From UHGV virus genome UHGV-1963057: a stretch of 21,781 nucleotides of DNA, one strand, 5' to 3'. The stretch is from a virus. Made by a program: the position numbers and the translations under genes. A model generated the notes under the pieces. That model had not been told where the DNA came from. It made no database searches and was given only the letters and a program-made list of their open reading frames with translations. Positions 1 through 21,781 of this stretch are shown here, piece by piece (position 1 is the first letter of the stretch; the number at the start of each line of letters is the position of its first letter).

Positions 1-189
1 GCGCTATTTAACCAGAAGCTGGCGGAATATCTGGTGCTGTATAACAGCAAAAGACCCCACAAGGCGCTCGCACTAATGACGCCCGTGGAATATATTTTAA
101 AAGAGAATAAAAATTGCAATATGTGGTGGACCCATACAAGCACTTGCTCCTTTTCCGGAGAGGCGCTAACCTTTCACTTGTCAAGGTAA
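1..189 (+). mobile_element. 3'-terminal fragment of a DDE-type (integrase-core-like) transposase gene; 5' part lies outside the window
   Basis: Frame 1 is open from the window edge to TAA at 187-189. Translation ...LVLYNSKRPHKALALMTPVEYILKEN... resembles the conserved C-terminal YNxxRPHxxL...TP motif of integrase-core transposases. Family not determinable by eye. Confidence 0.4.
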
Positions 190-821: not shown

Positions 822-1991
822 ATGGGAAAGAATAGTCAACGTAGGCGAGATAATAAAATTAAGCGAGAAAATGAGAAAAAAAGAAACTTAGCGGCAAAGA
901 TAAATAAAATGTTGTATATAAAGCCTGATATATTTTTTGATGAATCAGGTAATACTGGCGGAAATTTACTCGATCCATTGCAACCTGTTTTTACCTTAAG
1001 TTCAAGTAGTATTAGTAAACAGGATGCGCTTAAGGCATTAGAACTAACCGGAAGCAAGTCTCCAACAGAAGCCCACTTTAAAACTCTTAGACGTAGAAAA
1101 TCTGGTCAGGATGGCATCATTAGGCTTCTTGAAAGCAAATATGTCAATGAAGAGAATGTTAAAATATACTTGGTCGATAAAAAATACATGCTAACAGCAA
1201 AGATTGTTGATATTTTGATCGAGACGTGGTGCTCTAATAGAGGAATAGATCTTTATATAAATGGACAGAATCTAGCTCTGTCTAATGTTTACTATTTCTG
1301 TTTCCCTGCTTTCTGTGGGGAGGAAAAAACAGAGGTAATGTATCAGTGTTTTATGAATATGATCAGAAGCCAATCGACTGAGTCAATTGATGAATTTTAC
1401 AGGGTAATTGATGAGTTAAAGATATGCTCAAGTGATAAGATATTCACAGATATAATAAACAGAATTAGTATTACCAGAAGCGATATTGATGATATATTGG
1501 AAGGTGTTGAGAAAAGCACATTAGATCCATCTATACCAAGCCTCTTTAGACACTGTGTAGAATGGGGTAAATTATACCCTAATGGTTTTTATATTAAGCA
1601 TGACGATTCCAAAGCTATTACAGAGAAGAAAGATATTTTTGATAAATTTATGGATATATCAAAAATTACGGAGGCATATGGTTATGATCGAAGAAAATTT
1701 GAATTGCCAATTAAAGCTCGTTCTTTGACATTCCATTCATCACAAGAGTATCCTCAATTACAAATTGTAGATATAGTAGCAAGTGCGGCTGCTTATTATG
1801 TTAACTGTCTAAAAAGAAATGACTTAGAAGATTATCTCTTTAAAGAACTTCAAAGAATAAAAATAGATAACTATTTTAAAAATATGGCCATTTGGCCTAC
1901 AACATATGTTACACCTCAAGAATTAGGCACAATTTATACTGGTGGGCGAAACCCTGCAGATGGAGTCGCTGATTATCTTTCTCAATATTAG
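822..1991 (+). CDS. Hypothetical cargo protein, 389 aa, DUF3800-like by motif recollection; Lys/Arg-rich N-terminal tail
   Basis: Long ORF with GAGG 8 nt upstream of the ATG. Visibly AT-rich compared with the flanking phage genes. N-terminal region contains IFFDESGNTG and the C-terminal region QIVDIVASAAAYY, which I recall as the hallmark ends of Pfam DUF3800. Sits between D and ogr on the opposite strand. Confidence 0.8.
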   Translation: MGKNSQRRRDNKIKRENEKKRNLAAKINKMLYIKPDIFFDESGNTGGNLLDPLQPVFTLSSSSISKQDALKALELTGSKSPTEAHFKTLRRRKSGQDGIIRLLESKYVNEENVKIYLVDKKYMLTAKIVDILIETWCSNRGIDLYINGQNLALSNVYYFCFPAFCGEEKTEVMYQCFMNMIRSQSTESIDEFYRVIDELKICSSDKIFTDIINRISITRSDIDDILEGVEKSTLDPSIPSLFRHCVEWGKLYPNGFYIKHDDSKAITEKKDIFDKFMDISKITEAYGYDRRKFELPIKARSLTFHSSQEYPQLQIVDIVASAAAYYVNCLKRNDLEDYLFKELQRIKIDNYFKNMAIWPTTYVTPQELGTIYTGGRNPADGVADYLSQY

Positions 1992-2013
1992 TAACTGGAG
2001 TTTTAATTAATAT

Positions 2014-2034
2014 GGCCGCGTTAGCGGCCTTTCT
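2014..2034. terminator. Short GC hairpin (GGCCGC-gtta-GCGGCC) followed by TTTCT between convergent cargo gene and D
   Basis: 6-bp all-GC stem at 2014-2019 / 2024-2029 with a 4-nt loop and a T-rich tail on the plus strand, lying 23 bp after the cargo gene stop. Confidence 0.4.
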
Positions 2035-2082
2035 AACTATGTTTATTGCTAGTACATATCTGAACTAATACATTTAAGACAT

Positions 2083-3192
2083 TCACGCTGTTTCTGCTAT
2101 CCATTCCGGGATTTTTGCCTCAAGCTCAAGCTGCGTGGTAAAGCCGCTGTTATCAATGGTGTGCTCGGCTTTTGCAATAATCCAGTCCTGATTATCAATC
2201 TCGCTTTTAAATCCTGTTACCGTGCCATGCATTTCGGGGTAGAGTTCTGCACGTCCACGCGCCAGCGTGATGGAAAATGATGCGGCTCCGCGTTGTAGCT
2301 GCTGCCACTTTGCCGCCGCTGCGCGTCTTGCTGCCTGCTCGTTCTGATAAGTCTTGCGTAACACAAACACATTGCCTTCCGCGCCTTCCATATAATCACC
2401 TTCACGGCTGCTGCTTTTCTCCTTTTTGGGTTTTGGCGGTTTGCGGCGTTTCACGCTGACTTTTTTCTTTTTCCCGTAATTAAGATCAAGCCAGTAAGCG
2501 CGTACCCCCGTATACGCCTCGCGGTCAGCAATGCGGAACTGATGGCGATCGCCGCTGCTGCGTGTGATGGCGAACGATGGCAACGGCTGGCCCTGTGCGT
2601 TCACGCCACCACCTGGCATGATGAATAACAGATTGCCGCTTTTTACCGTGGTGATTGCGCCCAGCATTTCCGCCATGCGCGTAAGGAAGGACATATCGCT
2701 TTCTTCGGTCTGGTCGGCGTGGTCGATTTCGATATCCATCAGCATTTCGCTGATTTGCGGTTTCAGACCATACCGATGAGCGATGGCGGATACCACACGC
2801 TCAACGGTCACATCATGCCAGGACACCTCACGTTTAACGTTAAATTCATCCCGAAAATCTGCGCTTCTGGCTGAAACAGTCAGCCTGTCCGGCGGTCCTT
2901 CGTGAGCGATTTCATCAACAATGTAAGTGCCTTTTTCTGTCAGCGGTTCTCCTTTCCAGCCAATGAGAACCGTCAGGCGCGCGCCCCGTGGCGGTAGCTG
3001 CAACTGACCATCCGCATCATCCAGCGTGATGGTGAGCTGGTCCGCGTCAAATCCCCGGTTGTCGGTCAGTGACAGGCTCATCAGGCGCTCTGCCACGCCT
3101 GACAGCGTTTTACCCTCCGCGAGAATATCAAAATCCGGCATTTTCACGGGGTCTGTGCCCTGACTGAGCAATTGCATGGTGGTATCGGTCAT
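2083..3192 (-). CDS. D: Tail protein D (late control gene D family)
   Basis: Translation matches the P2 gpD family over its length. Start chosen at ATG 3192 (MTDTTMQLL...), preceded by GGGAGGG with 5-nt spacing; the six-frame ORF extends further upstream to 3324 without an RBS. Confidence 0.88.
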   Translation of the reverse strand: MTDTTMQLLSQGTDPVKMPDFDILAEGKTLSGVAERLMSLSLTDNRGFDADQLTITLDDADGQLQLPPRGARLTVLIGWKGEPLTEKGTYIVDEIAHEGPPDRLTVSARSADFRDEFNVKREVSWHDVTVERVVSAIAHRYGLKPQISEMLMDIEIDHADQTEESDMSFLTRMAEMLGAITTVKSGNLLFIMPGGGVNAQGQPLPSFAITRSSGDRHQFRIADREAYTGVRAYWLDLNYGKKKKVSVKRRKPPKPKKEKSSSREGDYMEGAEGNVFVLRKTYQNEQAARRAAAAKWQQLQRGAASFSITLARGRAELYPEMHGTVTGFKSEIDNQDWIIAKAEHTIDNSGFTTQLELEAKIPEWIAETA

Positions 3193-3349
3193 CTGTTCCC
3201 TCCCTGTGCGGCATGGTCGCATGTGCGTGCGGAGGGGGTTACTGCTTTTTGTTGTCGCCGGATCGGGAGAACGGCACAGGGGTGAGATTACGCGCGTGGT
3301 GGGTGATGATTGTTGCCGAATCATTTAACGGATACAAGGGGCTAAAGCT

Positions 3350-8938: not shown

Positions 8939-8974
8939 AAAACCGCTAATGGTCAGATTAGCGGTTTTTATTTT
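8939..8974. terminator. Bidirectional rho-independent terminator between convergent U and invertase genes
   Basis: Perfect 10-bp stem AACCGCTAAT (8941-8950) / ATTAGCGGTT (8957-8966), extendable to 12 bp with the AA/TT pairs at 8939-8940 and 8967-8968; loop GGTCAG; T-rich run on the plus strand and AAAA on its 5' side. Confidence 0.7.
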
Positions 8975-9557
8975 CCTGAGTCTGCCTGGTTGTTTCTTCA
9001 GCCTGTATATCGCCTACAGGGTGATAACGATAAATCGTCGATATGCCGATGTCGTAAATGATCGCCAGTTGTTTCCTGTCATGACCGTTTTTAATCAGCC
9101 TCGCTATTTGCTCGTGTTGTTCTTTTGTCAACTTCGGGCGACGTCCGCCAATGCGTCCTTGTGCGCGTGCTGCTGCCAGCCCGGCCAGTGTACGCTCTAC
9201 AATTAATTCACGTTCCATTTCGGCTAAAGCCCCCATGACGTGAAAAAAGAAACGCCCCATGGGTGTTGATGTGTCAATGCTGTCCGTCAGACTACGGAAA
9301 TTAACACCTTTTTCCCGCAATTCCTCAATAAGCGTGATCAGGTGTTTCATACTTCTGCCCAGTCTGTCCAGCTTCCAGACAACCAGCGTATCTCCTTCTG
9401 ATAGCGTTCTGAGCAGTTTTTTCAATCCCGGTCTGGCTGATTTCGTTCCGCTGATTTTATCTTCAAAAATCAGTTCACATCCTGCGCAGTTCAGTGCATT
9501 GCGTTGTAAATCCGTGTTCTGGTCATTTGTTGACACACGAATATAGCCAATTTGCAT
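8958..9557 (-). CDS. Serine recombinase, Hin/Gin/Cin/Pin-family DNA invertase
   Basis: 199 aa. MQIGYIRVSTNDQNTDLQRNAL...GDTLVVWKLDRLGRS...MGRFFFHVMGALAEMERELIVERT...GRIGGRRPKLT... is near-identical in pattern to Hin/Gin, including the catalytic Ser in RVST and a C-terminal HTH. Confidence 0.95.
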   Translation of the reverse strand: MQIGYIRVSTNDQNTDLQRNALNCAGCELIFEDKISGTKSARPGLKKLLRTLSEGDTLVVWKLDRLGRSMKHLITLIEELREKGVNFRSLTDSIDTSTPMGRFFFHVMGALAEMERELIVERTLAGLAAARAQGRIGGRRPKLTKEQHEQIARLIKNGHDRKQLAIIYDIGISTIYRYHPVGDIQAEETTRQTQENKNR

Positions 9558-9612
9558 AAAAAAACATCCTCTTTGTTTCGTGAAAAATACAGAGTTGGTA
9601 TAGGTAGGGATA

Positions 9613-9638
9613 AAAACGAAAACGTTGGTTTAGGAGAA
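9613..9638. other. Invertase crossover site (hix/gix-like 26-bp site), invertase-proximal
   Basis: AAAACGAAAACG-TT-GGTTTAGGAGAA; the right half fits the GGTTTnnGAnAA half-site and the central dinucleotide falls in the shared GLGE codons. Lies 56 bp from the invertase start. Confidence 0.7.
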
Positions 9639-10127
9639 GCGGCGAAAAGGGATGTGGGCACGACAGTCGGAACCGTTGCCGCTGGTGATGATTTACGCAT
9701 AATAGGAGCACTTCAAAAGGCAAATAATCTTTATGAGTTAACAAATAAATCTGACGCAAGAGCTAATCTTGGGTTAGGAACCGTTGCAACAAAAAACGTG
9801 GGAAATAGTGCTGGGCAAATACCTGATATGTCTTACTGGTCTTCACCGGCAGGCGGAATTAATTTCCCGAATGGGTTCCAGATGCGATTCGGGACTATCG
9901 CTGGTACTGGTGGAAAATTATTTTCTACGCCATTTACAAATCAGTGCTATGGCATTGTTTTCGGACAAACATATGGAGCCAACTACTGGATGTTCAGCCC
10001 GATGTACAGAGCATCTGATCTGAGTAATACCAGTTTTGCATTCATTAACAAAACCTGGTCTGGCGTTCCGGGGGTAGGTTCTCAGGACGCTGGTGAATCA
10101 GTTTTTTATATTGCAGTAGGGTATTAA
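9627..10127 (+). CDS. Silent alternative tail-fibre C-terminal cassette (Hv'), expressed only after inversion
   Basis: Open frame from the crossover core to TAA 10125-10127. Joining at the core fuses in frame to the H constant region (...DYLGLGE|AAKRDVG...). The listed ORF start at 9552 lies outside the segment and is not a real start. Confidence 0.75.
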   Translation, partial: GLGEAAKRDVGTTVGTVAAGDDLRIIGALQKANNLYELTNKSDARANLGLGTVATKNVGNSAGQIPDMSYWSSPAGGINFPNGFQMRFGTIAGTGGKLFSTPFTNQCYGIVFGQTYGANYWMFSPMYRASDLSNTSFAFINKTWSGVPGVGSQDAGESVFYIAVGY

Positions 10128-10128
10128 T

Positions 10129-10572
10129 ATGGAAATGGTTTATAGCGCCTCAAAAAATAGTTTTTTCGCTAAAAATGATGTGGCGAAATATGAACAGGCC
10201 GGATGGGAACTTGCTGATGTTGTCGAAGTGACATATGACACTTACCTGGAATTTATTGAAGACAGAACGTTGCAAGGGAAAGTACGCATCGCGGGTGATG
10301 ATGGCCTTCCCACCTGGGGGGAAATTCCACCGCCAACTCATGAGGAACAAATTGCTGCAGCCGAACTGGAAAAGCAGCAATTGATTAATCAGGTCAACGA
10401 ATACATATACAGTAAGCAATGGCCTGGTAAAGCGGCGATTGGTCGCCTGAAAGGTGAGGAACTGGCGCAATATAATTTGTGGCTGGATTATCTGGACGCA
10501 CTGGAACTGGTCGATACTTCCGGTGCGCCAGATATTGAATGGCCTACGCCTCCGGCAGTTCAGGCCAGATGA
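10129..10572 (+). CDS. Tail fibre assembly protein (alternative, paired with Hv')
   Basis: 147 aa starting 1 nt after the Hv' stop; the C-terminal ...DYLDALELVDTSGAPDIEWPTPP mirrors the C-terminus of the minus-strand assembly protein. 3' end overlaps its convergent partner. Confidence 0.8.
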   Translation: MEMVYSASKNSFFAKNDVAKYEQAGWELADVVEVTYDTYLEFIEDRTLQGKVRIAGDDGLPTWGEIPPPTHEEQIAAAELEKQQLINQVNEYIYSKQWPGKAAIGRLKGEELAQYNLWLDYLDALELVDTSGAPDIEWPTPPAVQAR

Positions 10573-19152: not shown

Positions 19153-20205
19153 TTAGCTGTCGGCGAACTTCAGGCCAGTGACCATCGCGCACTTGCCATA
19201 GTCTTCAACGACATAAGCGTCATTGATGGACTGGTAGGTGGCGATGCGGTTGTATTCCGGTTCGTCTTTCATCAGACGACGCATTGAACCTTTCTGCCAG
19301 TAAATCGACAGGTTGTTGAACGAGGTGATCAGCATCGTTGCATCCGGGAAGAACGGCGCAAGGAACACACCCAGCCCGCCAATGGTGCGCGATGACAGGA
19401 TGAGCTGTCCGGCGAGTAATTCCGCATTGGGATTCTGGCCGCTGATGCTGTTCAGCACGGGCAGACGCAGCGAGTTAAACAGGTTGCGCCCCATAATCAC
19501 CACGAGGTCGTCAGCTTCCTTGTGCCATTCATCCAGCAGGGATGAGCGTGCGTCCTGAACCAGTGCATCAGCGTTCGCATACTCACCCGCGTGCGCCACG
19601 GTGTTGTCCATGTTGCGGGAGGTCAGCGTCACGTCATTCATTACGCGCGCGCTGGCATTGGTTCTGATGTGCTCCAGCCACCCCACGTTAACGTCCTGAA
19701 GCAGCTTGTTGGTGCTGAAGTTGGATTTTTCCGCGTGTGACGTGCCGTTAAAGCCGATCATGATGCGGTCAAGCGCCACCTGTCGGGCAATCTGTGCGCT
19801 GATGCGGGTCTGGAAGTCATTGTGCGCCGCCCAGGCATCAAGCTGCGGATACGAAATAAACGTGTCGTAGTTCACCTGCTCACACTGGTACTGACGGGAC
19901 TTCAGGTCGACAGCGTTAATCGGGTTGCGGCGATCTGTGCCGTCATAACTGGTATTTGTGCGCGCAATCGGCCCGGTGGTGTCCATGAGGACTTTTTCGC
20001 CTTTCTGGTCGGTCACACCGATCACGTTAATTTTTTTTGTAAGTTCGGTGCTATCCTTTGAGGCGTTTTCAAAACGCTGCTGCACCGAGGGTTCCACGGT
20101 AAATCGCGATACCAGCCCAGAAACCGGGATATTGTTAATCGACGCCTGTCGCGTCATGTAGCAGCCCAGCTTGTTACGGGCATTATCTGACATCACCAGA
20201 TTCAT
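19153..20205 (-). CDS. N: Major capsid protein N
   Basis: 350 aa; size and position match P2 gpN; AAGGAG upstream of the ATG. Confidence 0.9.
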   Translation of the reverse strand: MNLVMSDNARNKLGCYMTRQASINNIPVSGLVSRFTVEPSVQQRFENASKDSTELTKKINVIGVTDQKGEKVLMDTTGPIARTNTSYDGTDRRNPINAVDLKSRQYQCEQVNYDTFISYPQLDAWAAHNDFQTRISAQIARQVALDRIMIGFNGTSHAEKSNFSTNKLLQDVNVGWLEHIRTNASARVMNDVTLTSRNMDNTVAHAGEYANADALVQDARSSLLDEWHKEADDLVVIMGRNLFNSLRLPVLNSISGQNPNAELLAGQLILSSRTIGGLGVFLAPFFPDATMLITSFNNLSIYWQKGSMRRLMKDEPEYNRIATYQSINDAYVVEDYGKCAMVTGLKFADS

Positions 20206-20228: not shown

Positions 20229-21065
20229 TCAGAAGTCAGCCAGCTGGTCGGAGGCTGCGCCCGTTGCGGTGAACCGGTTCTGCGGATCGCCGTCCTGCGT
20301 GCGCAGCTTTTCCTTCAGTGCTGTCAGCTCTGTGGTCAGCGAAGTGATTTTCTGGCTGTCCTGCTGATGGCGGGTTTCCAGTGCATTAAAGCGGTCGATA
20401 ATATCGGCCTGTGACGTTGCGACACCTTCCACCGCTTCCTGAATACGGGAGAAACTGGCGTCATCCGCTTTGCGGCCACGGCCAATAATCCCCATAACGC
20501 GGTTAAACCACTGGGTGCCTTCTTCCTGACGTTGTTCGGTGAGTTCGATAAGTTCTGACTCCATAGCGGCGGTGAACATCGCCACGTCTCCCTGCTGACA
20601 GTTGAATGTCATCAGTTGCATACGTTGTTGTGCCGCAAAGGCCAGACGTTCCGTGCCCAGGCTGGCGGGGGTGTCGGTCATTGCCAGCCCGCGCAGGTAA
20701 GGGCCTCCCGTGATGGTTGACTGTGGTTCCAGCTCAATACTGGAGTAAATTTTTTTACCATCGTTAAGCAGGGACATCATGCGAGCGGTCGGCTCAATTT
20801 CGGCATACAGTGCCGTGCGGCCTGCCAGCGGGCCATCGGTTATGTCTTCGGTGCTCAACCCCACAACATCGCCCATAGCGGAAAACTCGCTACCGGGGAG
20901 TGGTGACAGGATGTGCTCAATATTCACACGTGCACCATAAACGGACGGGTTATAACTGGTGGCGGCAGCTTTCAGCATGTCGCCGTTGATTTCGCGCCCG
21001 TCTGCCGTCACACCGGAGACAGCCACGCGAAACTTTTTGCGGGATGTCTTTTTTTCATTAGTCAT
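20229..21065 (-). CDS. O: Capsid scaffolding protein O
   Basis: Start chosen at ATG 21065 (MTNEKK..., GAGGGG upstream); the listed ORF begins at 21098 with no RBS. Gln/Glu-rich coiled-coil C-terminus typical of scaffolds. Confidence 0.85.
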   Translation of the reverse strand: MTNEKKTSRKKFRVAVSGVTADGREINGDMLKAAATSYNPSVYGARVNIEHILSPLPGSEFSAMGDVVGLSTEDITDGPLAGRTALYAEIEPTARMMSLLNDGKKIYSSIELEPQSTITGGPYLRGLAMTDTPASLGTERLAFAAQQRMQLMTFNCQQGDVAMFTAAMESELIELTEQRQEEGTQWFNRVMGIIGRGRKADDASFSRIQEAVEGVATSQADIIDRFNALETRHQQDSQKITSLTTELTALKEKLRTQDGDPQNRFTATGAASDQLADF

Positions 21066-21219
21066 AGTTTTTGCCCCTCTGACTGGTTCTTCAGTCATGA
21101 TGGCAAAGCGTAACAGGCTGATACAAAGGGCTTTTGTTGTAAGAAAACAGTCAGAACAGGGGGTTAAGGAGAACGGTTTCGCGCGCGGGTAATCTTCCTG
21201 TAATTACTCAGGGGGAGCA

Positions 21220-21666
21220 ATGATTCAGGACGCTTTTGTGCGCCAGCGTGCGCGGCAACTTTACTGGCAGGGTTATCCGCCCGCAGAAATATCACGTCTG
21301 ATGGGAATAAACCCGAACACGATTTATGCGTGGAAAAAACGCGACCAGTGGGATGAAACGCCACCCGTGCAGCGTGTCACGCAGTCCATCGATGCGCGCC
21401 TCATCCAGCTTACTGAAAAACAGAATAAAACAGGTGGTGACTTCAAGGAAATAGACCTGCTGACCCGGCAGCTTAAAAAGCTGCATGATGGCCAGCCGGA
21501 TGTGATGGCCGCAGGAAAGAAAGGCCGGGCGAAAAAACTCAAAAATCATTTCACGCCGGAACAGATTGCCGCACTGCGGGAAAAAATCATCAGCAGGCTG
21601 GAGTGGCATCAGCGGGGCTGGTTTGACTCCCTGACCCTTTGCCTGTCTCTTGATCAGATCTCCTGA
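21220..21666 (+). pseudogene. P: Terminase ATPase (large) subunit P, N-terminal ~141 codons only; reading frame runs into an IS end and stops
   Basis: Divergent from O as in P2. N-terminal HTH region ARQLYWQGYPPAEISRLMGINPNTIYAWKKRDQWDE is typical of gpP-type terminases. A full gene would be about 590 codons; here the frame terminates at 21664-21666, just after the IS terminus at 21643. Confidence 0.6.
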
Positions 21667-21781
21667 TCAAGAGACTTCATCACCAGGTAACCCTCAACCA
21701 TATCCTGAAGTCTGAACCAGCCATCCCACATGACTACCCAACCGGGGCGACCGGTGCGTTTGCTGTCATGCCATCGCCCCA
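21643..21781 (-). mobile_element. End of an IS50-like (IS4-family) insertion sequence with the 3' end of its transposase gene; the element extends beyond the window
   Basis: 21643-21661 reads CTGTCTCTTGATCAGATCT, identical to the IS50 inside end as I recall it (two GATC Dam sites). The minus strand, open from the window edge to TGA at 21654-21656, translates ...WHDSKRTGRPGWVVMWDGWFRLQDMVEGYLVMKSLDQEI*, resembling the Tn5 transposase C-terminus (...DSKRTG...) but not identical. Confidence 0.7.

What the first reader, a model, noticed from the sequence alone, without database searches (positions are those of the whole stretch)
21220..21781. Terminase ATPase gene P truncated by an IS50-like element
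The P frame runs about 141 codons and then reads straight into the 19-bp terminus CTGTCTCTTGATCAGATCT (21643-21661), stopping a few codons later. On the opposite strand the window edge encodes a Tn5-transposase-like C-terminus (...DSKRTG...KSLDQEI*) ending inside that terminus, the same way the IS50 transposase gene ends inside its inside end. Without P the prophage cannot package DNA, so it is probably a cryptic element. The element is not identical to IS50 in either its transposase C-terminus or the bases just inside the terminus. A 13-bp perfect inverted repeat GTCTCTTGATCAG / CTGATCAAGAGAC spans the terminus.
Basis: partly seen in the sequence, partly recalled or inferred. Interest (0 to 1): 0.5.

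Follow-up and report, generated by a model that had tools for sequence, protein, structure and literature searches.

The report
ISEc13 insertion in prophage terminase gene
A well-known E. coli jumping gene (ISEc13, a relative of IS50/Tn5) has landed in the DNA-packaging gene of an otherwise intact P2-like prophage; this is an ordinary, apparently recent gene knockout.

Summary
Window 21220-21642 is the first 141 codons of the terminase large-subunit gene (P) of a P88-like (Xuanwuvirus, P2-family) prophage. It is 100% identical to intact 583-codon alleles in many E. coli genomes. Similarity to every intact allele stops exactly at 21642. From 21643 to the window end (139 bp) the sequence is 100% identical to the inside end of ISEc13, a catalogued 1550-bp IS4-family element with about 30 copies in EPEC E2348/69. 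Its first 19 bp equal the IS50 inside end. The rest is not IS50: the transposases are 39% identical and the DNA has no similarity past about position 25. The 13-bp palindrome is a native ISEc13 feature. The truncated product keeps only the N-terminal HTH (Terminase_5) domain and loses the ATPase and nuclease domains. The portal gene lies downstream in the same transcription unit, so it is probably affected too. The other 23 late genes in the window are full length, so the event looks recent. "Cryptic" is plausible but not shown. The window ends inside the IS, so the other IS end, the target duplication and the rest of P cannot be seen. Side finding: ISEc13 and its relatives insert into short hairpin-like palindromes, and P carries one (TCCCTG-N8-CAGGGA) at the site. 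Low novelty, low interest.

The parts
21220..21642 (+). 5' fragment (codons 1-141 of 583) of the terminase large-subunit gene P of a P88-like, P2-family prophage. It keeps only the HTH/Terminase_5 domain.
   Evidence: tblastn to P88 TerL covers residues 1-141 at 97.9%. There are 0 mismatches in 423 nt to intact alleles in L003, L067-L069 and L072-L075. Pfam Terminase_5 covers residues 6-63; in the intact protein Terminase_6N starts at residue 150 and Terminase_6C at residue 405.
21643..21666 (+). IS-encoded tail of the truncated P reading frame (LSLDQIS plus a TGA stop).
   Evidence: ORF 21220-21666. Homology to intact P ends at 21642.
21643..21781 (-). Inside-end-proximal 139 bp of ISEc13 (IS4 family, IS50-like), cut off by the window end. 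The transposase gene is on the - strand.
   Evidence: 139/139 nt identical to ISEc13 copies in E2348/69 and other strains. It is identical to L001 2501-2639 of a 1550-bp element.
21643..21661 (+). 19-bp terminal inverted repeat of ISEc13, identical to the IS50 inside end.
   Evidence: The same 19-mer lies next to aph(3')-IIa in Tn5-derived DNA. The terminal 14 nt TGATCAAGAGACAG are conserved in most relatives, down to about 40% transposase identity, with one or two changes in a few.
21654..21779 (-). Last 41 codons plus stop of the ISEc13 transposase (Tn5-type dimerisation domain). The stop lies inside the terminal repeat.
   Evidence: Translation. The full-length reference copy has Tnp_DNA_bind, DDE_Tnp_1 and Dimer_Tnp_Tn5 domains. 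It matches Tn5 transposase structures at E=7e-83.
21645..21675 (.). 13-bp perfect palindrome (arms 21645-21657 and 21663-21675, 5-nt loop) native to ISEc13. One arm is positions 3-15 of the terminal repeat; the other encodes K-S-L-D-Q of the transposase.
   Evidence: It is present in every ISEc13-clade copy. The arm core TCTCTTGA is invariant in clade members with about 49% transposase identity, although the Ser and Leu codons are six-fold degenerate.
21633..21642 (+). Presumed left copy of the target-site duplication: CCCTTTGC (21635-21642) if 8 bp as in E. coli ISEc13 copies, up to GACCCTTTGC if 10 bp.
   Evidence: An 8-bp duplication was found at 4 of 4 independent E. coli ISEc13 sites that have one, and 8-10 bp (one of 12 bp) in relatives. 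The second copy lies outside the window, so this is inferred.
21628..21633 (+). Left half (TCCCTG) of the dyad TCCCTG-ACCCTTTG-CAGGGA at the insertion site. The right half is beyond the IS and is seen only in intact alleles.
   Evidence: 10 of 13 intact P alleles carry the perfect 6-bp dyad. Relatives insert between such inverted repeats.
20229..21065 (-). gpO capsid scaffold/protease gene, divergent neighbour of P. It is the first gene of the intact head operon (O, N, M, L...).
   Evidence: Pfam Phage_GPO E=1e-85. Full-length tblastn match to P88 gpO. The exact protein occurs next to an intact P and portal gene in 10 of 10 contigs shown.

Best explanation
A copy of ISEc13 transposed into the terminase large-subunit gene P of a resident P88-like (P2-family) prophage. 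ISEc13 is a 1550-bp IS4-family element whose DDE transposase is a 39%-identical homologue of Tn5/IS50 transposase. The IS end that is identical to the IS50 inside end abuts P exactly after codon 141.

Mechanism, inferred from the Tn5 paradigm: transposase dimers bind the two 19-bp ends, excise the element and join it to staggered cuts 8-10 bp apart in the target. The chosen site fits the element's preference for short inverted repeats, here TCCCTG-N8-CAGGGA.

Consequence: P is split between its N-terminal HTH domain and its ATPase and nuclease domains. The product is a 148-residue stub. The downstream, overlapping portal gene Q is probably affected by polarity. The prophage therefore cannot package DNA on its own.

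The event is recent: both the IS and the P fragment are 100% identical to other copies, and every other late gene in the window is intact. The window stops 139 bp into the IS. The other window end also lies in a multi-copy IS, which suggests that the window is a short-read contig broken at repeats. I put about 70-75% on a simple insertion with the rest of P resuming about 1.4 kb further on.
For: Shown:
- Homology to intact phage and prophage P genes ends exactly at 21642, in 3488 E. coli records and 16 phage records.
- 21643-21781 is 139/139 identical to ISEc13.
- The junction falls on base 1 of the IS terminus.
- All 13 intact alleles continue with AG(G/T)GAAGCC rather than the 19-mer.
- The domain split is documented.
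- In intact relatives P (583 aa) is followed directly by the portal gene on the same strand.
- 23 other P88 late proteins align full length in single segments.
- The ISEc13 transposase is a Tn5-type homologue.
- Duplication length and palindromic target preference come from 17 independent insertion sites: a mean of 5.0 of 6 flanking positions are complementary against 1.5 by chance.
- The same dyad is present at the P site.
- In draft assemblies ISEc13 collapses into its own contig of 1551-1552 bp (L006, L007). Window 1-138 is the end of another multi-copy IS.

Inferred: the transposition chemistry, the polarity on Q, the loss of packaging, and continuation of P beyond the IS.
Against: Only one IS-target junction is in the window, so there is no second end, no target duplication and no 3' part of P. 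The same junction was not found in 5426 complete E. coli genomes, in GTDB representative genomes or in JGI metagenomes. The truncated protein is not on record. The allele therefore cannot be confirmed independently. The junction is 1 nt off the position expected for an 8-bp duplication centred on the dyad. No functional data exist on prophage induction.
Confidence: 0.85

Rival explanations
1. One-ended junction. The ISEc13 copy did insert in P, or recombined with a copy that had. A later IS-mediated deletion, inversion or homologous recombination between ISEc13 copies then removed or relocated the 3' part of P, Q and the early region. What remains is a prophage remnant, not a simple insertion.
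For: Genomes carrying ISEc13 can hold up to about 30 copies. One of five independent E. coli copies examined (pMAR2, L060) has no target duplication, the signature of such rearrangements. The window gives no sequence beyond the IS. The other prophage end also carries an IS.
Against: All late genes on the visible side are intact and the P fragment is 100% identical to live alleles, which points to a very recent event. Four of five surveyed ISEc13 copies are simple insertions with 8-bp duplications.
Confidence: 0.22
2. Artefact. The P-IS junction is an assembly chimera, or transposase-adapter contamination at a contig end, and P is intact in the real genome.
For: The window ends in repeats at both sides, as a short-read contig would. 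Tn5-derived adapter sequences are a common contaminant at contig ends (own knowledge).
Against: The break coincides to the base with nucleotide 1 of the IS terminus, and a random chimera would not do that. The 19-mer is the inside-end sequence, not the Nextera mosaic end. It is followed by 120 further bases of genuine ISEc13 coding sequence. The site carries the target dyad that the family prefers.
Confidence: 0.03
3. The element is IS50/Tn5 itself, or a laboratory mini-Tn5 carrying the I end.
For: The 19-bp terminus is identical to the IS50 inside end.
Against: Beyond about position 25 there is no nucleotide similarity to IS50 except one 75-nt patch at 73%. The encoded C-terminus is ...KSLDQEI* rather than ...MAQGIKI*. 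The transposases are 39% identical. The 139 bp are 100% ISEc13.
Confidence: 0.01

Closest known systems
ISEc13 (IS4 family; NCBI 'IS4-like element ISEc13 family transposase'), e.g. the roughly 30 copies in EPEC O127:H6 E2348/69
   Same: 139/139 nt identical over everything visible: the terminal repeat, the palindrome and the transposase C-terminus.
   Different: Nothing in the sequence differs. Only the insertion site, inside a prophage terminase gene, was not found in any collection searched. The five surveyed E. coli copies lie in intergenic DNA; the four with a duplication sit in hairpin-like palindromes, three of them just past a gene end and one between the MGMT-family gene and ybaY.
IS50 / Tn5
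   Same: Identical 19-bp inside end. The other ISEc13 end, CTGTCTCTTATACACAAAT, matches the Tn5 outside end at 17 of 19 positions (outside-end sequence from my own knowledge). The transposase stop codon sits at positions 12-14 of the inside end. The transposases share domain architecture and are clearly homologous.
   Different: 39% protein identity and essentially no DNA similarity inside the ends. The duplication is 8 bp in E. coli ISEc13 copies against 9 bp for Tn5 (own knowledge). ISEc13 has palindromes at both ends; IS50 lacks the 13-bp one at its inside end (IS50's outside end was not obtained).
Terminase large subunit gpP of phage P88 (Xuanwuvirus, Peduoviridae) and P2-family prophages
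   Same: Residues 1-141 are 98% identical to P88 and 100% identical to many prophage alleles. The gene has the same divergent arrangement with gpO, gpN and gpM.
   Different: Truncated at residue 141 of 583. The ATPase (Terminase_6N) and nuclease (Terminase_6C) domains are missing from the reading frame.
IS4-family elements with dyad or REP target preference (IS231A GGG-N5-CCC, from own knowledge; ISRm22 in REP elements, PMC1525189)
   Same: ISEc13-clade insertions lie between short inverted repeats, and the duplication covers the spacer.
   Different: The spacing (8-10 bp) and the CCC../..GGG arms resemble intrinsic-terminator stems rather than REP clusters. I found no description of this for ISEc13.

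Membership tests
ISEc13 (IS4 family, IS50-like group) | Near-identical nucleotide sequence to reference ISEc13 copies | tested here: met
   139/139 nt identical to the E2348/69 copies over all of the element that is in the window.
ISEc13 (IS4 family, IS50-like group) | Terminal inverted repeats CTGTCTCTT... at both ends | tested here: inconclusive
   The inside-end repeat is present at 21643-21661. The other end lies outside the window and was seen only in reference copies.
ISEc13 (IS4 family, IS50-like group) | DDE transposase with Tn5-type DNA-binding, catalytic and dimerisation domains | tested here: inconclusive
   Only the last 41 residues are in the window, and they are identical to the reference. 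The reference protein has Tnp_DNA_bind, DDE_Tnp_1 and Dimer_Tnp_Tn5 and matches Tn5 transposase structures at E=7e-83.
ISEc13 (IS4 family, IS50-like group) | Direct target-site duplication flanking the element | not testable with these tools
   The second junction is outside the window and was not found in any collection. Reference copies show 8 bp.
IS50 proper | IS50 nucleotide sequence and transposase | tested here: not met
   Only the terminal 19-25 nt match, and the transposases are 39% identical.
P2-family terminase large subunit (gpP) | N-terminal Terminase_5 domain plus Terminase_6N ATPase and Terminase_6C nuclease domains | tested here: not met
   Terminase_5 is present (E=8e-28). The ATPase and nuclease domains are absent from the frame because of the IS. 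Intact alleles have all three. It is therefore a disrupted member (pseudogene) of the family.
P2-family terminase large subunit (gpP) | Synteny: divergent from the gpO-gpN-gpM head operon and followed by portal gene Q | tested here: inconclusive
   The divergent O, N and M genes are present and intact. Q lies beyond the window. It follows P in all intact relatives.
Cryptic (defective) prophage | Loss of functions needed to form infectious particles | tested here: inconclusive
   One essential gene is disrupted. All other visible late genes are intact. The early region, int, cos and Q are not in the window, and there are no induction data.

The most novel reading that the evidence does not exclude
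ISEc13 and its relatives may form a sub-group of Tn5-like elements with a rule that I could not find described. They insert into the loop of short G+C-rich hairpin palindromes, which look like intrinsic terminators, and duplicate the 8-10 bp spacer. They also carry conserved hairpins of their own at both ends. At the outside end this is an inward-facing terminator-shaped hairpin. At the inside end it is a 9-13-bp palindrome maintained at synonymous codon positions of the transposase. The hit in P would then be a rare in-gene occurrence of that target motif (TCCCTG-N8-CAGGGA), and the end hairpins might insulate transposase expression or replace the terminator that the element destroys.
Probability: 0.35. 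Interest if true: 0.3.

Novelty: already known. Interest (0 to 1): 0.1.

Why it matters
It matters little beyond annotation. The P gene here should be called a pseudogene interrupted by ISEc13, and the prophage should be flagged as probably unable to package DNA. IS hits in prophage morphogenesis genes are a routine route of prophage domestication and decay. There are two practical points. First, the contig break inside ISEc13 is an assembly limit, not biology, so statements about the rest of the prophage need long reads or PCR. Second, the ISEc13 ends are identical or nearly identical to Tn5 ends: the inside end matches 19 of 19, and the other end matches the Nextera mosaic end at 17 of 19 (my own knowledge of that sequence). 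Adapter trimmers and mini-Tn5 junction pipelines could therefore mistake genuine ISEc13 ends for adapters. The hairpin-target preference of the ISEc13 clade is a modest lead for people who study IS target choice.

Tried and rejected
- Looked for the same insertion allele elsewhere. A megablast of 21100-21781 against 5426 complete E. coli genomes found no place spanning the junction. An exact junction 37-mer in GTDB representative genomes gave 0 hits. The left junction and the predicted right junction with a 8-10-bp duplication gave 0 hits in JGI metagenomes. An exact look-up of the 148-aa truncated product found nothing on record. The right junction therefore could not be recovered.
- IS50/Tn5 or mini-Tn5 identity: rejected.
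- Nextera adapter contamination: rejected, because the terminus is the inside-end sequence and is followed by 120 nt of ISEc13 coding sequence.
- The 19-mer as a native part of P: rejected. 13 of 13 intact alleles lack it.
- Additional decay of the prophage: I first suspected that gpD was fragmented, judging from the ORF list. tblastn showed that gpD lies elsewhere (2089-3192, - strand) and is full length. The ORFs at 8958-10572 are the invertase and alternative tail-fibre cassette.
- The palindrome as an intrinsic terminator: no T run follows it on either strand, and the scan found none there.
- The IS50 copy I fetched (L059) lacks its outside end, so I made no full-length IS50 versus ISEc13 DNA alignment.
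- The literature search for ISEc13 returned only resistome and mobilome surveys that list the name.

Full report
**1. The observation**

- CTGTCTCTTGATCAGATCT occupies 21643-21661. It is unique in the window even with three mismatches allowed, and none is expected by chance.
- The + strand ORF 21220-21666 has 148 codons.
- The - strand of 21654-21779 encodes GRWHDSKRTGRPGWVVMWDGWFRLQDMVEGYLVMKSLDQEI*. Its stop codon lies inside the 19-mer.
- The 13-bp perfect inverted repeat has arms at 21645-21657 and 21663-21675 with a 5-nt loop. As a single strand it folds at about -24.7 kcal/mol, well below shuffled controls.

**2. What the left part is**

- The first 141 codons carry the Pfam Terminase_5 (gpP-like) domain, E=8e-28. 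They are 97.9% identical to residues 1-141 of the 583-residue terminase large subunit of phage P88 (Xuanwuvirus, Peduoviridae).
- Several complete E. coli genomes have the 423 coding bases without a single mismatch, inside an intact 583-codon gene followed directly by the portal gene.
- The neighbours are as in P2-type phages. On the opposite strand lie gpO scaffold (20229-21065; Phage_GPO E=1e-85), the P2-family major capsid protein (19153-20205), the small terminase and the rest of the late genes.
- In every comparison, against 3488 E. coli records and 16 phage records, similarity stops exactly at 21642.
- In all 13 intact alleles I read, the gene continues ...CCCTTTGC|AG(G/T)GAAGCCGGG.

**3. 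What the right part is**

- Bases 21643-21781 are 139/139 identical to copies of ISEc13, annotated by NCBI as 'IS4-like element ISEc13 family transposase'. EPEC E2348/69 has 30 matches on its chromosome and 2 on pMAR2. In all, 2465 of 5426 complete E. coli genomes carry this element or a variant of it.
- A reference copy (L001 2501-4050) is 1550 bp long. One end is CTGTCTCTTGATCAGATCT and the other is CTGTCTCTTATACACAAATCC. It holds a single 457-residue transposase gene.
- That protein has the Tnp_DNA_bind, DDE_Tnp_1 and Dimer_Tnp_Tn5 domains. It matches solved Tn5 transposase structures at E=7e-83 and is 39% identical to the IS50 transposase.
- The 19-mer equals the IS50 inside end. It sits next to aph(3')-IIa in Tn5-derived DNA and appears in primers to that region. 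In both elements the transposase stop codon is at positions 12-14 of that end.
- Beyond about position 25 there is essentially no DNA similarity to IS50.
- 'IS50-like but not IS50' is therefore right, and the precise name is ISEc13.

**4. How it most likely arose and what it does**

- The junction coincides with base 1 of the IS terminus. That is the signature of transposition rather than of a random break or an assembly chimera.
- By homology with Tn5, the transposase would bind both ends, excise the element and join it to staggered target cuts. This step is inferred, not shown.
- The insertion separates the N-terminal HTH domain (residues 6-63) from the ATPase domain (150-374) and the nuclease domain (405-566). 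The frame ends seven IS-encoded codons later.
- In intact relatives the portal gene starts at the last base of P on the same strand, so polarity on the portal gene is likely (inferred).
- Terminase large subunit is essential for packaging in P2-type phages (established knowledge). The prophage should therefore be unable to make filled heads on its own.
- The other 23 P88 late proteins tested align over their full length in single segments. The P fragment and the IS are both 100% identical to other copies. The event therefore looks recent.
- 'Cryptic' is a reasonable expectation, not a demonstrated state. Q, cos, the early genes and int are outside the window.

**5. What cannot be seen**

- The window ends 139 bp into the IS.
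- Its other end (1-138) is the 3' end of an IS481-family transposase gene. That element is multi-copy in some E. coli genomes, with up to 38 matches in one genome.
- In draft assemblies ISEc13 collapses into a separate contig of 1551-1552 bp (L006 and L007).
- Together this suggests that the window is a short-read contig broken at repeats (inference).
- I could not find the same junction, or the predicted opposite junction, anywhere. The searches covered complete E. coli genomes, GTDB representative genomes, JGI metagenomes and the exact truncated protein.
- A simple insertion is about 70-75% likely in my judgement. It cannot be distinguished here from a one-ended junction left by an IS-mediated deletion or inversion.
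- One of the five independent E. coli ISEc13 copies I examined (pMAR2) lacks a target duplication, so such rearrangements do occur.

**6. The palindrome**

- It is part of ISEc13, not something created by this insertion. It is present in all reference copies.
- One arm is positions 3-15 of the terminal repeat. The other arm encodes K-S-L-D-Q near the transposase C-terminus.
- Relatives from Scandinavium, Pantoea, Buttiauxella, Klebsiella and Phytobacter (70-77% protein identity) keep 12-13 bp of it.
- Relatives from Alishewanella, Alteromonas, Colwellia and Pseudoalteromonas (about 43-50% identity) keep 8-12 bp.
- The core TCTCTTGA is invariant in all of these, although Ser and Leu each have six codons and the neighbouring conserved E-G-Y codons vary freely at third positions.
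- More distant relatives with the same terminal 14 nt have no palindrome. It is therefore not needed for end recognition as such.
- This points to selection at the nucleotide level. My best guess is a 3' stem-loop that bounds or stabilises the transposase mRNA, or a second partial transposase-binding site. Neither was tested. No T run follows the palindrome on either strand, so it is not a canonical terminator.

**7. Why this site?**

- For 17 independent insertions of ISEc13 and its relatives, I reconstructed the empty target. The duplication is 8 bp in the four E. coli ISEc13 sites and 8-10 bp (one of 12 bp) in relatives.
- The six bases on either side are complementary at a mean of 5.0 of 6 positions, against 1.5 expected by chance. 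Typical arms are CCC.. and ..GGG.
- The E. coli copies lie in intergenic DNA: just past the 3' ends of satP, tRNA-Pro and trhA, and between the MGMT-family gene and ybaY. These sites look like terminator hairpins.
- P carries TCCCTG-ACCCTTTG-CAGGGA exactly at the insertion point in 10 of 13 intact alleles.
- The observed junction lies 5 nt from the dyad centre. That fits a symmetric 10-bp duplication, or an 8-9-bp duplication shifted by one base.
- Dyad or REP targeting is already known within the IS4 family (ISRm22, PMC1525189; IS231A from my own knowledge). This is a variation on a known theme, although I found no description of it for ISEc13.

**8. Verdict**

The finding is real and was correctly interpreted. 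It is also ordinary: a catalogued insertion sequence has disrupted a prophage packaging gene. Novelty is 'already known' and interest is 0.1. The only mildly new material concerns the ISEc13 clade: its end hairpins and its preference for hairpin targets. That material is peripheral to the finding itself.

Noticed in passing
window 1-138 (reading frame runs to 186): The window begins inside the 3' end of an IS481-family transposase gene (rve_2/rve_3 hits). Relative to phage P88 this element sits immediately next to the start of the hok/gef toxin gene at the prophage's ogr-proximal end. The same IS-prophage junction occurs in the complete genomes AH19B041 (100% identical) and MB06101 (99.5% identical). 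The prophage region therefore carries two IS junctions, and both window ends lie in multi-copy repeats.
   Followed up: partly
L001, L061-L063 (E. coli ISEc13 copies) and L013-L045 (relatives); target in window 21628-21642: ISEc13 and its relatives insert between short inverted repeats, duplicating the 8-10 bp (one of 12 bp) spacer. Across 17 independent sites a mean of 5.0 of 6 flanking positions are complementary, against 1.5 by chance. The E. coli copies lie in intergenic DNA, three of four just past a gene end, at terminator-like hairpins. The P site has TCCCTG-N8-CAGGGA.
   Followed up: partly
L001 4010-4050 (ISEc13 outside end); L008, L013, L017, L023, L041, first 50 nt of each element: The other end of the element also carries a hairpin overlapping the terminal repeat. 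In relatives it reads AAATCCCnn-loop-nnGGGATTTTTTT, which has the shape of an intrinsic terminator facing inward. That would stop outside transcription from entering the transposase gene. In ISEc13 it is CACAAATCCCC/GGGGATTTGTG with no T run.
   Followed up: partly
L001 4032-4050 (ISEc13 outside end CTGTCTCTTATACACAAAT): This end matches the Nextera/Tn5 mosaic end CTGTCTCTTATACACATCT at 17 of 19 positions, including the first 16 (mosaic-end sequence from my own knowledge). The inside end equals the mini-Tn5 I end. Adapter trimmers or Tn5-junction pipelines could clip or misassign genuine ISEc13 junction reads.
   Followed up: no
L060 (pMAR2 of E2348/69), ISEc13 copy at 1601-3150: This copy has no target-site duplication (flanks ...ctgtatgac / tccttgcag...). 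That suggests recombination or deletion between ISEc13 copies on the plasmid.
   Followed up: no
window 822-1991 (+), next to gpD at 2083-3324 (-): A 389-residue ORF (MGKNSQRRRDNKIKRENEKK...) lies between ogr and gpD and has no counterpart in P88. A 384-residue hypothetical protein occupies the same position in AH19B041. It may be a prophage cargo (moron) gene. I did not analyse it.
   Followed up: no
window 8958-9557 (-) and 9552-10572 (+): A DNA invertase gene (82% identical to the P88 invertase) sits next to alternative tail-fibre and assembly ORFs. The tail-fibre protein matches P88 gpH only over its N-terminal 430 residues at 63%. This indicates an invertible host-range cassette with a different fibre tip.
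   Followed up: no
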